NCBI RefSeq assembly: GCF_009914755.1
Contig: NC_060925.1
DNA: 64,000 bases
Direction: 5' to 3' (one strand)
DNA from: the human T2T-CHM13v2.0 reference genome, Homo sapiens
How positions within the stretch are numbered: the first letter of the stretch is position 1; the number at the start of each line of letters is the position of its first letter. A model generated the notes under the pieces. It saw nothing but the letters and a program-made list of their open reading frames with translations. It did no database searches and was not told where the DNA came from. The position numbers and the translations under genes were made by a program. Below are positions 2,183-12,779 of the stretch, piece after piece.

Positions 2183-2755
2183 TGAAAACATCCTCAAAAA
2201 ATTTTTAAAAACAGTTAAGGAGGAAAAAGTAAAATTCAACTAGGCTTGTAGGACAATCAATGGTAATCATTAGGCTAGCTTTCCATTGACCCACTTCCTT
2301 ATAGCTGGTCACTGATTACTAGTCCAGGATAACATAATCTTTGTCACTAGAATCTTTGTTCTTTTTCTGTTCTTTAGTTAAAATTTAAGACAATATGAGA
2401 TGACAAACTTTCCATTTGAGTTTCTCCTTTAGGTTCTGCATACTAACAAAACTACTGATGCCAGCCATTCTGAAAGGCTTGACAAGAAACTCAACTTAGG
2501 GAAGAATGTACTTTCCATATCCTGATGATTTCAGCCCCCTTACCCGAATCAATTGATGACCTCAATTTTCCAGCCACTCCCCCTTCAAAGATTCTTGCCC
2601 AGAAAGCTTCAGTGAAATGGGTTTGAGTCTTGAGAATTCTTCTCATGTCCTTGTTTGGTGACCTTGCAATTGGTAAACTCTCTGTTGCAAACTCCACTGT
2701 CTTGGTATATTCTGTTGCTGCACAGCAGGCATACAAACCTTACAATCTTATAAAA
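2183..2755 (+). repeat. ERV 5' LTR
   Basis: Aligns by eye with 11934-12779 (aaaattcaacta, agctttccatt, agctggtca.tgattacta, gagtttctcctttaggttctgcata); followed by the PBS remnant. Confidence 0.88.
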
Positions 2756-2768
2756 ATTCATGGCAAGC

Positions 2769-3077
2769 ACCCAGACATGATGGCTCACACCTGTAATCCC
2801 AGCACTTTAGGAGGCAAAGGAGGGCAGATTACTTGAGGTCAGGAGCTTGAGACCAGGCTGGCCAACATGGTGAAACCCTGTCTCTACTAGAAATACAAAA
2901 GTTGCCCAGGCATGGTGGCACATGCCTGTAATCCCAGTTACTTGGGAGGCTGAGGCTGGAGAATCACTTGAACCTGGGAGGCAGAGGTTGCAGTGAGCCA
3001 AGATCGTGCCACTGCACTCCATCCTGGGAGACAGATTGAGATTCCGTCTCAAAAAAAAAAAAAAAAAGAAAAGAAAA
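2769..3077 (+). mobile_element. Alu (AluS-like) inserted into the ERV primer-binding site
   Basis: Dimeric Alu with poly(A); 17-bp TSD aaaaattcatggcaagc at 2752-2768 and 3078-3094. Confidence 0.96.
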
Positions 3078-3294
3078 AAAAATTCATGGCAAGCCACTCT
3101 CCTTGCAGTCATTTACCTACAGTCCAGTGCCCCCATGCCACTGGGGCTGACCCAGAGAGAAGCTCAAGAAGCTGCTTAGTTATGATGAACTAAGGGCCTT
3201 AGCTGGGGCCTTCTGTGTTGGCAGGGCAGTGCTGACTTTCAGCACACAACCTTGTCTGCAGCAGAGAAACCATTTCTGGTCTCAGAAGAAGTCT

Positions 3295-3303
3295 CAGGTG
3301 AGT
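3295..3303 (+). promoter_or_regulatory. Consensus 5' splice site CAG|GTGAGT, probably the proviral major splice donor
   Basis: Near-perfect U1 match located between the PBS and gag. Confidence 0.55.
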
Positions 3304-9700: not shown

Positions 9701-10449
9701 TTCTTCCGTTACCTTCTCAGACTAAGGAATGCCAATAACATACACATAAATAAATTAGATATTATCAAATATACACAATCTTTAGGTTGTACTTTAACTA
9801 CTATTCACGAGTTTGTGGTTCCAGCAGATTGTGGTATCCAACTGACATTCTCTTTCATCCCATCCAACCCAGAGACTGGGTTCTGCTCAAGACCAGGAAA
9901 AGTCGACATCCTGGGGACCACTTAAAACACAGTGAAAGAGGCCATGCAAAGCATGACTGGTGACCCATTCCTCTGTTCATCTTGAAGGACTTAGACCCTG
10001 GATTCACCACAGCCATATAAAACCCGCCCCGCCAGATTCTTGTCCTATCAAGAAATGTAGAGAGGCCACTTCAACTTCAGAGACTGTCTCAACCCTATCT
10101 GAATGGATAAGTAAATCTTTGATGGGCCTCAAATATCTTTTGAGGAAAAATATCAGATAAGTAACTTTAATGAAATTAGACAAAACATATGTCTTCTTGA
10201 CTACTACAATAGTTACTTTGAGCATAACAGGAATGTTTGTTATTATAATTATTTTATATAAAAAGGTGAGATACCTTCCTGTCTATTCCCTGCCTTACTG
10301 AATGCTTAAGCCATATATTTACTTGGTCATTATAATTGCCTAGATAATTACAATTGCTACCCTTATAGACATTACTTCATAATTGCCTTGGTCAATACAA
10401 TTGTTAGACTTATAGATTTTCTAGACATTATATGCCATGCTAACATAGT

Positions 10450-11760
10450 CTCATGCCACTCATTATGTGGACATTCTAAAATTTAGAAATGGTCACTCTT
10501 GTTTTAAAACTTCTAATTATACCTCTCCTGTTACTACAGTGCCTAGACAGGCATAGCAACACTGTAGTTCAACTGTTTCAAGGTATTGCCACTGGAAGAA
10601 ACTTACCAGAATGATGGATCTGTCAGTAACTCCCCCAAACTATTCAAAATAAGCATTTTCTGTTAGTCATACTTGTCACTGACTTTCTGGATGTTCCAAA
10701 TATGACTACCTATCTGCACCAGCTTCTTTCCATGGCTACTTTCCAGGTCCAAGTAATAGTACACCAAGAAATCACCACCCCATGTGTCAATCTCTCTCTG
10801 CCTATCATAAATGGAAAGTCATTCCATTACATAGGCCCTCCATGGCCCATGGCATACTGGGCAGACAAACGCAGCTAGGAGAAGGGAAATAAAACTAAAA
10901 GTTTCTCCTTACTATGCCAAAAATATTTACAGTGGGGAATATCACACAAATTCTGGGGAGCCTGTAAAAAAAGATCCCTAGTTCAATTCCATTTGTCTAT
11001 ATTCCCCATGAAAAAAATCCATCAATAAATGCACCCTTGAGGGCTTTACCTGTGTGCCCCCTTGGTACATGTTTATTTGTGGCATAGGATCAGACCCTCC
11101 TCTGTTAGGACAAGCCCACTGGTGTCTCAATAACCTGTATATTAAGGGCTCTCACTTACTGAGATACTTCTCAGTCCATCCTAATGACAAAATATTCTGC
11201 CCATTTTCCCACAGACTCCAAAAGGGACTGCCAGGCATATATCAATATATCTGGTGGCAGAGCCTTCTAGGCATCACGAGTCCTAGCTATGGAGTATACA
11301 CTCACTGGGACATGATCAGAAACTTATTGGCAACCACAGAAATAATTGCAAAAGAGGCTGCTAAGAACATTGAGGCTGAGAAAACTCTTCAAATTTACTT
11401 GCCCAGATAGTTCTTGACAACGGAACTACACTTGATTTTCTCTTGGCTTTACAGAGAGGAGTCTGTACAGTGATCAATACCACCTGTTGTACTTATATCA
11501 ATGCTTCTGGTAAAATAAAAACCAAACTAAAGAAAATATTTCAGCAGTCTCGCTGGAGACCATATGTCTCTACCACAGACCCTATGTCTGAATAGTTTTT
11601 TGAGCTTTCCGCCTGCATACTCCATGTTTTCCAGTCCATTTTTCAAGGACTCTTGAAGTTCAAGCTCACAATTCTGTTTATAGGGATTATAATTTACATC
11701 ATTCAATTAAATATTACAATAAAACCATAGACTGAAGTACTAACATGTTCATCCAGCACC
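10450..11760 (+). pseudogene. ERV env remnant (gamma-type); boundaries approximate
   Basis: Decayed CWIC motif (tgatggatctgt near 10612); TM immunosuppressive-like domain and CX6CC: AQIVLDNGTTLDFLLALQRGVCTVINTTCCTYINASG from 11401. Confidence 0.85.
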
Positions 11761-11933
11761 CTAAGCTGGGTATAACAGCTTGCAGGTTGTTACAAGACGG
11801 TTTCATTCCTCTAATCCTGACTCTCTCTCTGTGCCCCGTGTCAGCAAAAAGAAGCTAGAATGGCCATTGCCCAATTCATACCATATTAGCTTTTACACCT
11901 CAGAATTGAGAAGGGATCAAGCCCGGAAGGAAC

Positions 11934-12779
11934 TGAAACTGTCCCTAGGAAAGTTATATAAAATTGATTAAGGGGGAAAAATTCAACTATGATTTCAGGA
12001 AAATCAGCAGTAATCACTAAATCAGCTTTCCATTTGTCCAACTTCTCTGTAGCTGGTCATTGATTACTACCCTAGGATAAAGAAGCCCTTGTCACAAGAC
12101 ATTTTGGTCCTTTTCCTTTCTATAGATAAAATCTAAGACATTGTGAGATGATAATCTTTCTGCATGAGTTTCTCCTTTAGGTTCTGCATATGAAAAAAAA
12201 ACCTAGCAACATACTGGTCAACAAGGCAAAACCTCATTTTCACAAAAAATTAAAAAATTAGCCGGGCATTATGGCACAGGTCTGTAGTACCAGCTGCTCA
12301 GGAGATCTGAGGTGGGAGGACCACTTGAGCCTGGGAGGCAGAAGTTGCAGTGAGCTGTGATCACGCTACTGAAATCCAGATGGGCAACAGAGCAAGATCA
12401 TCTTGCTCAAAAACAAAACACACACACACACACAAACATACACACACAGACACACAAAGACACAAACATCAGCTGGTCTAAAGAGCCCAGCAAAAAGCTG
12501 ACTCAGGAAATAATGCAGGTTCCACATCCTGGTGACTTCATCCCCCTTACCCTGACCAATTGACAACCCAAATTTTCTAGCCCGTCACCCTCCATGATCC
12601 CCTTAAGGTCTCTTGCACATAGCCCCTTCTCAGAACAGATCTGGGGCTTGAGAATCCTCCCAATTCCTTGTTTGGTGCCCTTGTGTTGATTAAAGCCTTT
12701 CTTTGCTGCAAACCCTACTGTCTCCGCGTATTGGTCTATTGCTAAACAGTGGGCATGTGAACCTGATAGTCTTATAACA
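11934..12779 (+). repeat. ERV 3' LTR containing a truncated Alu and (CA)n
   Basis: Starts TGAAAC after a purine-rich tract, ends ...ttataaCA; ATTAAA at 12689-12694. Confidence 0.88.
12205..12465 (+). mobile_element. 5'-truncated old Alu (AluJ/FRAM-like) with CA-repeat tail
   Basis: aaaaattagccgggcatt...gaggtgggaggaccacttgagcctgggagg...; absent from the 5' LTR. Confidence 0.85.

What the first reader, a model, noticed from the sequence alone, without database searches (positions are those of the whole stretch)
2183..12779. The FHL-1 isoform of factor H appears to be an exaptation of an endogenous retrovirus
Seen: the acceptor, the SFTL-stop codons (3717-3730), the 3' UTR and the probable poly(A) signal all lie between the two LTRs of a sense-oriented provirus. 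The acceptor and codons sit in the leader between the PBS and the gag ATG (3883). Established: FHL-1 is the SCR1-7+SFTL splice product of CFH, prominent in Bruch's membrane, and generally reported as absent in mouse. Inference: the provirus acted as a natural gene trap and created a second complement regulator, so FHL-1 should occur only in lineages carrying this insertion. FHL-1 is well known; I do not know of a description of its retroviral origin but cannot search the literature.
Basis: partly seen in the sequence, partly recalled or inferred. Interest (0 to 1): 0.9.

Follow-up and report, generated by a model that had tools for sequence, protein, structure and literature searches.

The report
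FHL-1 end exon is retroviral
The short exon that turns the complement factor H gene into its truncated product FHL-1, an eye-relevant complement regulator, is built entirely from an ancient endogenous retrovirus sitting in the gene's intron.

Summary
Confirmed and sharpened. Window 2183-12779 is one sense-oriented, decayed gamma-like provirus. It has a 4-bp target duplication, LTRs about 75% identical, and gag, integrase and env remnants in order.

The FHL-1 exon (3717-3965) lies wholly inside it.
- The branch-point motif, pyrimidine tract, AG acceptor and in-frame TGA sit in the viral leader.
- These are ancestral family features: AG in 29 of 37 dispersed copies, TGA in 30 of 37.
- That piece was found in 0 of 37 dispersed copies. 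It supplies the LTR's own poly(A) module (ATTAAA in 31 of 41 family LTRs).

The whole arrangement predates a chr1 segmental duplication. After that duplication, the four tail codons changed at 5 of 11 bases on the CFH lineage.

LTR divergence (K2P 0.31) is three times the paralog divergence (0.10). The provirus is therefore probably much older than the reported Old World monkey onset of FHL-1.

Orthologous introns could not be examined. Ten literature searches found no description of this origin. It is a new member of a known kind: an ERV-derived terminal exon.

The parts
2179..2182 (+). Upstream copy of the 4-bp target-site duplication (AAAT)
   Evidence: Read directly. Identical AAAT follows the 3' LTR at 12780-12783.
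2183..2755 (+). 5' LTR (573 nt, starts with TG). The poly(A) hexamer position is mutated to GGTAAA at 2672-2677.
   Evidence: Dispersed copy L009 aligns down to 2197 and 11936.
2761..3104 (+). PBS-like site TGGCAAGC..., split by a sense Alu (about 2770-3077) that has a perfect 17-nt target duplication (2752-2768 / 3078-3094)
   Evidence: Read directly. Alu copies matched. The tRNA type of the PBS was not determined.
3095..3882 (+). Retroviral leader, with a splice-donor-like CAG|GTGAGT at 3295-3303
   Evidence: homologous to dispersed copies that run LTR-leader-gag (L003, L007).
3678..3716 (+). 3' splice site of the FHL-1 exon: CTAAC branch-point motif 3678-3682, pyrimidine tract 3696-3714 (16 of 19 pyrimidines), AG 3715-3716
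   Evidence: AG is present in 29 of 37 dispersed copies.
3717..3730 (+). FHL-1-specific coding bases: (A)GC TTT ACC CTC TGA = S F T L stop
   Evidence: TGA is at this place in 30 of 37 dispersed copies.
3717..3965 (+). FHL-1 terminal exon (249 nt) = leader 3717-3882 + gag codons 1-15 (3883-3927) + R part of the internal LTR piece (3928-3965)
   Evidence: Exon span from the hub's RefSeq table. Composition.
3928..4192 (+). Copy-specific internal segment: partial LTR (R'-U5, to about 4032), PBS-like site 4038-4055, first ~110-125 nt of leader. It is flanked by imperfect direct repeats (3895-3927 and about 4166-4209).
   Evidence: (0 of 37 dispersed copies have it; 19 of 19 informative copies are contiguous). 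Present in the chr1 paralog.
3942..3999 (+). Poly(A) module used by FHL-1: ATTAAA 3942-3947, cleavage after CAAA at 3965, GU-rich tract 3972-3999
   Evidence: ATTAAA in 31 of 41 family LTRs; CAAA in 32 of 41; first sense hexamer after the acceptor.
4203..11600 (+). Decayed gag-pol-env with many stops and frameshifts. Alus at 6093-6400 (+) and 6460-6796 (-).
11934..12779 (+). 3' LTR (ends with CA), interrupted by an Alu fragment and a (CA)n tract at about 12200-12470. ATTAAA at 12689-12694.
12780..12783 (+). Downstream copy of the target-site duplication (AAAT)

Best explanation
A gamma-like retrovirus integrated in sense orientation into the intron between the SCR7 and SCR8 exons of CFH. Its leader carries a usable 3' splice site: a CTAAC branch-point motif, a pyrimidine tract and an AG.

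Fourteen bases further on there is a TGA that is in frame for the phase-1 SCR exons. An extra internal R-U5-PBS-leader piece lies 212 nt downstream of that stop. It brings the LTR's own polyadenylation module: ATTAAA, a CA cleavage site and a GU-rich U5.

When the SCR7 exon splices to this acceptor instead of to the SCR8 exon, four residues are added, translation stops, and the RNA is cleaved and polyadenylated at the retroviral R/U5 border. The product is FHL-1 (SCR1-7 + SFTL). In effect the provirus is a natural acceptor-stop-poly(A) gene trap.

Shown here: the position, homology and ancestry of each signal. Taken from annotation and literature: that the exon is used and that FHL-1 is made. 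Inferred: that acceptor, stop and hexamer were trap-competent as soon as the internal piece existed, which was before the chr1 segmental duplication. Also inferred: that the SFTL wording of the tail arose later on the CFH lineage.
For: The provirus anatomy and the SFTL reading are given under the observation check.

The exon sequence is ERV-derived. Region 3300-3970 has 44 genome matches. Copies L003 and L007 are colinear from LTR through leader into gag, up to window 5370 and 5696.

Signals ancestral to the family:
- AG in 29 of 37 copies, TGA in 30 of 37, and both in the same register in 18 of 37.
- The CTAAC columns are mostly shared.
- ATTAAA is at the homologous LTR position in 31 of 41 distinct LTR copies, plus one AATAAA.
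- ATTAAA at 3942 is the first sense hexamer after the acceptor.
- The annotated exon end, 3965, falls on the conserved CAAA, which is present in 32 of 41 LTR copies.

The internal piece is unique to this copy. In 19 of 19 informative dispersed copies the two flanks are contiguous, and 0 of 37 carry it.

The chr1 paralog carries the whole provirus with the piece. It keeps AG and TGA but has lost the hexamer through a 2-nt deletion.

FHL-1 biology comes from passages of PMC7593401, PMC5786067 and PMC10099856.
Against: I examined no RNA data. Exon use rests on the hub's RefSeq row and on the literature.

No orthologous intron could be examined. The order of events across species is therefore inferred from divergences only.

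Reviews citing Dopler 2019 (not readable here) place FHL-1-type gene structure no earlier than Old World monkeys. Yet LTR-LTR K2P is 0.31, against 0.10 for the paralog pair. This argues for a much older provirus. An immediate trap would then predict FHL-1-like products in more lineages than reported.

The acceptor block is only moderately conserved among copies: 0.83 against a mean of 0.78, rank 86 of 409. Nothing therefore shows that it was a working viral splice site.

The ERV family could not be named, because no repeat library is held.
Confidence: 0.9

Rival explanations
1. Delayed, two-step exaptation. The provirus sat in the intron for tens of millions of years without making a stable product. 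FHL-1 only began in the catarrhine stem, after later changes such as a better pyrimidine tract, the internal R-U5 piece, changes in exon definition, or the new tail.
For: The reported onset is in Old World monkeys (passages of PMC7593401 and PMC10145879).

LTR K2P of 0.31 against paralog K2P of 0.10 implies a long interval between integration and the duplication.

The G-to-T change that lengthens the pyrimidine tract (TTGCCCAG in most copies, TTTCCCAG here, CTTCCCAG in the paralog) is a derived state.

The internal piece may be younger than the integration: K2P is 0.19-0.25 to its 5' source, against 0.31 between the LTRs.

The tail changed at 5 of 11 bases after the duplication.
Against: AG, in-frame TGA and ATTAAA are all ancestral family states. 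All three were in place, by parsimony, when the segmental duplication happened.

The divergence differences for the internal piece rest on about 100-200 sites and are within about 2 standard errors.

The Old World monkey claim was seen only second-hand, and it may reflect a search for SFTL itself.
Confidence: 0.4
2. The internal R-U5-PBS-leader piece is a remnant of a different family member (a second integration, or captured cDNA or RNA), rather than a duplication of this provirus's own 5' end.
For: Its LTR part is closer to dispersed LTRs than the provirus's own 5' LTR is. Mean identity is 0.80 against 0.75, and it is closer in 24 of 28 loci chosen with the 3' LTR.

Private changes are 3.5 against 11 (medians over 24 distinct outgroups, about 95 sites, p about 0.05).
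Against: It is nearer to the own 5' LTR (83.5%, n=97) than to the own 3' LTR (75.7%, n=107).

It lacks U3 and everything after about 125 nt of leader.

The flanking repeats are far longer than a retroviral 4-6 bp duplication.

The outgroup comparisons reuse the same ~100 sites, so they are not independent.

Constraint on the poly(A) module or gene conversion would give the same asymmetry. The piece differs from its paralog at only 3 of 103 sites.
Confidence: 0.12
3. The exon is older than, or independent of, the retrovirus, and the resemblance is coincidental.
For: None found.
Against: Region 3514-3923 aligns at 67-77% identity to 37 dispersed copies, with E-values down to 1e-87. Region 3926-4036 aligns to family LTRs at up to 89%. 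The exon lies inside a TSD-bounded provirus.
Confidence: 0.01

Closest known systems
Leptin receptor short isoform whose C-terminal exon comes from an endogenous retroviral LTR (Kapitonov and Jurka 1999; recalled, not read here)
   Same: An intronic retroviral sequence supplies an alternative 3' exon with a few new C-terminal residues, a stop and the 3' end. This gives a truncated isoform of a physiologically important protein.
   Different: In that case a solitary LTR is used. Here the acceptor and stop lie in the leader of a full provirus, and the poly(A) module comes from an aberrant internal R-U5 piece.
HERV-H LTRs providing the main poly(A) signal of HHLA2 and HHLA3 (Mager et al. 1999; recalled, not read here)
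   Same: The cellular mRNA is cleaved at the R/U5 border using the LTR's own hexamer.
   Different: Those are normal gene ends. Here the LTR signal creates a premature alternative end that competes with 13 downstream exons.
Engineered retroviral gene-trap cassettes, and intronic IAP/ETn insertions in mouse that cause premature polyadenylation (established knowledge, recalled)
   Same: Logic of a sense-oriented acceptor, stop and poly(A). The upstream exons are fused to viral sequence and the transcript is truncated.
   Different: Those are recent, mostly deleterious mutations or artificial constructs. This one is fixed and old, and its product is a working complement regulator.
Gammaretrovirus-like (class I) human endogenous retroviruses
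   Same: Gag_p30, MLV-type integrase C-terminus and TLV_coat hits, a 4-bp target duplication, and an LTR of about 575 nt.
   Different: The family name and the PBS tRNA type were not determined. The PBS-proximal leader (3095-3330) is almost unique in the genome, with only 4 matches.

Membership tests
Endogenous retroviral provirus, class I (gamma-like) | Two LTRs in the same orientation, TG...CA, flanked by a short target-site duplication | tested here: met
   2183-2755 and 11934-12779, with AAAT on both sides.
Endogenous retroviral provirus, class I (gamma-like) | gag, pol and env remnants in that order on the LTR strand, with gamma-type domains | tested here: met
   Gag_p30, Integrase_H2C2, rve and TLV_coat (rve and Gag_p30 fall below Pfam's curated cut-off); weak RT_RNaseH and MLVIN_C hits in colinear order. 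No RVT_1 hit.
Endogenous retroviral provirus, class I (gamma-like) | Primer-binding site after the 5' LTR and polypurine tract before the 3' LTR | tested here: inconclusive
   TGG-starting site 5 nt after both LTR ends (2761, 4038). tRNA not assigned. Only a short purine run (GGAAGGAA) lies before 11934.
Endogenous retroviral provirus, class I (gamma-like) | Belongs to a dispersed multi-copy family | tested here: met
   44 matches, 156 candidates; 394 candidates for the LTR end; 212 candidates.
Transposable-element-derived alternative terminal exon (natural gene trap) | The 3' splice site of an annotated exon lies inside the element, in sense orientation | tested here: met
   Exon start 3717 (hub table). 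AG 3715-3716 lies in leader homologous to 37 copies.
Transposable-element-derived alternative terminal exon (natural gene trap) | An in-frame stop codon is supplied by the element | tested here: met
   (TGA in 30 of 37 copies).
Transposable-element-derived alternative terminal exon (natural gene trap) | The poly(A) signal and cleavage site are supplied by the element | tested here: met
   The exon end at 3965 is from the hub table.
Transposable-element-derived alternative terminal exon (natural gene trap) | The isoform is absent from lineages with the empty insertion site | not testable with these tools
   No non-human vertebrate genome is held. Only second-hand statements on mouse and New World monkeys were seen.
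FHL-1 (CFH short transcript) | SCR7 exon joined to an exon reading SFTL-stop | tested here: met
   The SFTL tail encoded on exon 10 is stated in a passage of PMC7593401.

The most novel reading that the evidence does not exclude
The leader of this ERV family is a ready-made trap for phase-1 introns, carrying a branch point, an AG and a TGA 14 bases later. The CFH provirus, with its internal R-U5 poly(A) module, has therefore produced a truncated SCR1-7 factor H since well before the Old World / New World monkey split, possibly since before the primate radiation.

On this reading, earlier or other lineages make FHL-1-like proteins with a different four-residue tail. The paralog reads K-S-T-H, and several dispersed copies read K-T-T-H. 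The SFTL tail, which affects pentraxin-3 binding (passage of PMC5786067), would be a catarrhine innovation fixed by positive selection: 5 changes in 11 bases.

The absence of FHL-1 in mouse would then be a loss or decay of the provirus rather than a primate gain.
Probability: 0.3. Interest if true: 0.75.

Novelty: new member of a known kind. Interest (0 to 1): 0.6.

Why it matters
FHL-1 is described as the main complement regulator in Bruch's membrane. It carries the Y402H site linked to age-related macular degeneration (abstract and passages of PMC7593401; passages of PMC5786067).

Reviews treat its late evolutionary appearance and its absence in mouse as unexplained facts. A retroviral origin gives a concrete cause, and three consequences follow:
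- **Testable evolution.** The question of when and why FHL-1 arose becomes a presence/absence and signal-state survey of one intron.
- **Animal models.** It explains why rodents cannot model FHL-1.
- **Defined targets.** It defines short elements that set the FH:FHL-1 ratio: the AG at 3715-3716, the hexamer at 3942-3947 and the 265-nt internal piece. That ratio is a target of current therapy design.

Full-length sense-oriented proviruses in introns are generally depleted (established knowledge, recalled). Retention of this one in an essential gene is therefore itself notable.

Tried and rejected
**Gap-tolerant alignment for the insert borders.** It scattered spurious blocks inside the insert; only 6 copies gave a clean 283-nt gap. 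I used BLAST HSP adjacency instead.

**Origin of the internal piece.**
- Identity to dispersed LTRs chosen with the piece itself is biased by ascertainment.
- I repeated this with loci chosen by the 3' LTR and with a three-way relative-rate count. The result is borderline (p about 0.05) and pseudo-replicated, so it is left open.

**Similarity of 4161-4192 to the leader or gag start.** Not above shuffled controls. The longer flanking repeat rests on inspection against 12 copies.

**Conservation scan of the leader.** The acceptor block is not exceptional, so I make no claim that it was a viral splice site.

**Test for purifying selection on the CFH copy against its paralog.** The paralog has about twice the private changes in 2183-2480 and 3500-3927. 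This is not so in gag, the 3' half of the 5' LTR, or the 3' LTR. The asymmetry is regional, not specific to the splice or poly(A) signals, so no selection claim is made except for the tail codons.

**Leader start as a query for more outgroups.** Only 4 matches.

**Literature.** Dopler 2019 and Cantsilieris 2018 are not held, so the species distribution of FHL-1 and the date of the duplication are second-hand or recalled. Supplements of large TE-exon catalogues were not searched and may list this exon.

**Not determined.** The ERV family name and the PBS tRNA type, because no repeat library is held.
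Full report
**1. What is there**

Window 2183-12779 is a single provirus on the + strand, the strand of CFH.
- The two LTRs match each other: 2231-2451 vs 11978-12199 at 77.0% (E 6e-43), and 2494-2756 vs 12501-12780 at 68.1% (E 4e-20) (families D2, D8 and D5).
- They begin with TG at 2183 and end with CA at 12779. They are flanked by AAAT at 2179-2182 and 12780-12783.
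- Dispersed copy L009 aligns to both LTRs down to 2197 and 11936, which fits these borders.

Between the LTRs the frames are full of stops. Pfam still finds, in order and all on the + strand:
- Gag_p30, 5335-5535 (E 4e-6)
- Integrase_H2C2, 8953-9153 (E 4e-6)
- rve, 9154-9330 (E 1e-4)
- TLV_coat, 11380-11595 (E 5e-7)

Weaker colinear hits are Gag_p30 at 4994-5281, RT_RNaseH at 7929-8105 and MLVIN_C at 9957-10160. No RVT_1 hit was obtained. Alus lie at about 2770-3077 (in the PBS, with a perfect 17-nt duplication), at 6093-6400 and at 6460-6796. An Alu fragment with a (CA)n tract interrupts the 3' LTR.

**2. The FHL-1 exon**

The hub's RefSeq table gives an exon of another CFH transcript at 3717-3965.
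- I fetched the 10 kb before the window. The SCR7 exon ends ...CGT GTC A|gtaagt at window -7420.
- With 3717-3730 (GC TTT ACC CTC TGA), the junction reads AGC TTT ACC CTC TGA, which is S F T L stop.
- The SCR8 exon at 16136 is in the same phase.
- In front of the exon lie a CTAAC motif (3678-3682), a tract with 16 of 19 pyrimidines (3696-3714) and the AG (3715-3716).

**3. The exon is retroviral sequence**

Window 3300-3970 has 44 matches at E<=0.001 in the same genome. These include itself and a chr1 paralog (156 first-look candidates, 40 scored).

I fetched 37 dispersed copies (L003-L039). One further match, covering only 3301-3586, was not fetched. The copies align to 3514-3923 at 67-77% identity. 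Two of them (L003, L007) run colinearly from LTR through leader into gag, up to window 5370 and 5696.

The gag ATG at 3883 (MGNANS...) is present in 28 of 37 copies.

**4. The signals are ancestral to the family**

| Feature | Dispersed copies that share it |
|---|---|
| AG at 3715-3716 | 29 of 37 |
| TGA at 3728-3730 | 30 of 37 |
| Both | 23 of 37 |
| Both, with no gap between them | 18 of 37 |

- The equivalent of the pyrimidine tract averages 0.80 pyrimidines in the copies.
- Several natural copies read AG ACC ACC CAT TGA at this place. Behind a phase-1 exon ending in A, that would give K T T H stop.
- The block is not unusually conserved: 0.83 against a leader mean of 0.78, rank 86 of 409. 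I therefore do not claim it was a viral splice site, only that the virus brought it.

**5.

Region 3926-4045 matches the 3' ends of both LTRs: 77.5% to 2656-2768 and 76.4% to 12673-12778. Region 4057-4160 matches the leader start 3095-3197 at 78.8%.
- In 19 of 37 dispersed copies BLAST finds both flanks. In all 19, the homolog of about 3916-3923 abuts the homolog of about 4198-4203. None of the 37 has this piece.
- Segment 3928-4192 (R'-U5, PBS-like site, first ~110-125 nt of leader) is therefore specific to the CFH copy.
- It is flanked by imperfect direct repeats: 3895-3927 and about 4166-4209. This is by inspection against 12 copies; a strict local alignment does not recover them above shuffles.

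The FHL-1 poly(A) hexamer ATTAAA (3942-3947), the annotated end at 3965 (…GCAAA) and a GU-rich tract (3972-3999) all lie in this piece, at the LTR's own poly(A) position.
- ATTAAA is there in 31 of 41 distinct family LTRs, plus one AATAAA. CAAA is there in 32 of 41.
- The 5' LTR has GGTAAA at this position, and the 3' LTR keeps ATTAAA at 12689.
- ATTAAA at 3942 is the first sense hexamer after the acceptor; the next is at 4480.

The exon is thus 166 nt of leader, 45 nt of gag (codons 1-15) and 38 nt of R.

**6. How the piece arose is open**

Three models are possible:
- a tandem duplication of R-to-gag-codon-15 followed by an internal deletion;
- reverse-transcriptase template switching;
- capture of a fragment of another family member.

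K2P from the piece to its 5' source is 0.19 (n=97) for the LTR part and 0.25 (n=115) for the PBS-leader part. Between the two LTRs it is 0.31 (n=517).

The LTR part of the piece has fewer private changes than the 5' LTR: medians of 3.5 and 11 over 24 distinct outgroups, p about 0.05. It differs from its paralog at only 3 of 103 sites, against 10.1% overall. I cannot separate constraint on the poly(A) module, gene conversion, or a later or different origin.

**7. The paralog and the tail**

A copy of the whole provirus lies about 82 kb downstream, inside the pseudogene LOC100996886 of the hub table. Its 5' LTR starts near chr1:196128342 and its 3' LTR ends at 196138169.
- It shares the Alu in the PBS and the internal piece, so both predate the duplication.
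- Divergence is 243 of 2404 aligned sites (10.1%; K2P about 0.10).
- The paralog keeps CTAAC, AG and TGA but has lost the hexamer through a 2-nt deletion.
- Its tail reads AG TCC ACC CAC TGA, which is K S T H stop.

The CFH copy differs from the paralog at 5 of the 11 tail bases. Only 18 of 2332 11-nt windows of the alignment reach 5 differences. At four of the five sites the paralog carries the commonest base of the dispersed copies, so the changes are on the CFH lineage. This is the opposite of the local trend, in which the paralog has more private changes. It suggests selection, or clustered mutation, on the SFTL tail. One paper reports that the tail influences PTX3 binding (passage of PMC5786067).

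**8. Age**

LTR-LTR K2P is about three times the paralog K2P (0.31 against 0.10).
- With commonly used primate rates (recalled, 1-2.2e-9 per site per year), the provirus would be about 70 My old or older, and the duplication about 23-45 My old.
- With the fastest published LTR rates (recalled, up to 5e-9), the provirus would still be about 30 My old.
- Family copies are only 67-77% alike, which also points to an old family.

This is inference. No orthologous sequence could be examined.

It sits uneasily with the statement that FHL-1-type gene structure is not found before Old World monkeys. That statement is in passages of PMC7593401 and PMC10145879, both citing Dopler 2019, which is not held. 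There are three possibilities:
- the trap was silent for a long time;
- it decayed in other lineages;
- the in-silico survey looked for the SFTL form, which my data place after the duplication.

**9. Prior description**

Ten searches were run.

| Search terms | Papers found |
|---|---|
| FHL-1 + factor H + endogenous retrovir | 0 |
| factor H-like + transposable element | 0 |
| CFH + exoniz + LTR | 0 |
| FHL-1 + factor H + LTR (whole word) | 0 |
| CFH + endogenous retrovir + polyadenylation | 3 |
| factor H + FHL-1 + retrotranspos | 3 |
| FHL-1 + complement + retrovir | 27 (20 listed) |

- By the listed titles and abstract starts, none of the papers found concerns the origin of the exon.
- Two FHL-1-centred reviews of 2026 contain neither 'retrovir' nor 'transpos'.
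- Subscription papers and supplementary tables of genome-wide TE-exon catalogues were not searched. Any RepeatMasker track would show the overlap. I put the chance that it is already listed somewhere at roughly one in three.

**10. Verdict**

It is a new member of a known kind: a retrovirus-derived alternative terminal exon. It affects a medically important protein, and it makes the origin and species range of FHL-1 directly testable.

Noticed in passing
L002/L041/L071 (chr1:196128342-196138169; window 84342-94169, outside the window): The entire provirus, including the Alu in its PBS and the internal R-U5 piece, is duplicated inside the pseudogene LOC100996886 (about 90% identity). That copy keeps the acceptor and TGA. 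It has lost the poly(A) hexamer through a 2-nt deletion and carries an extra antisense Alu after the equivalent of window 4649.
   Followed up: partly
window 2752-3094: A sense Alu is inserted exactly in the primer-binding site of the provirus, with a perfect 17-nt target duplication (2752-2768 / 3078-3094). The paralog shares it, so it is older than the segmental duplication.
   Followed up: no
window 3295-3303: CAG|GTGAGT, a strong splice-donor motif at the position expected for the retroviral major splice donor, 418 nt upstream of the FHL-1 acceptor. Too few copies cover it to judge conservation.
   Followed up: no
window 3095-3330: The PBS-proximal leader is nearly unique in the genome, with 4 matches: itself, the paralog, the internal piece and one chr8 copy at 69%. 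The leader from about 3364 onward has at least 44 matches. This may indicate a subfamily-specific or recombinant 5' leader.
   Followed up: partly
hub gene table, after the window: The table lists LOC100996886, CFHR4 and CFHR2 after CFH, but no CFHR3 or CFHR1. This would fit the common CFHR3-CFHR1 deletion haplotype in this assembly. Not checked.
   Followed up: no
L100 8763-9998 (window -1238 to -3) and L100 4744-5407: An open frame of 412 residues with LINE-1 ORF2-like sequence (by recall) runs into the start of the window. A CT-rich low-complexity tract of about 650 nt lies further upstream in the same intron.
   Followed up: no
window 12200-12470: The 3' LTR is interrupted by an Alu fragment followed by a (CA)n-like microsatellite.
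   Followed up: no
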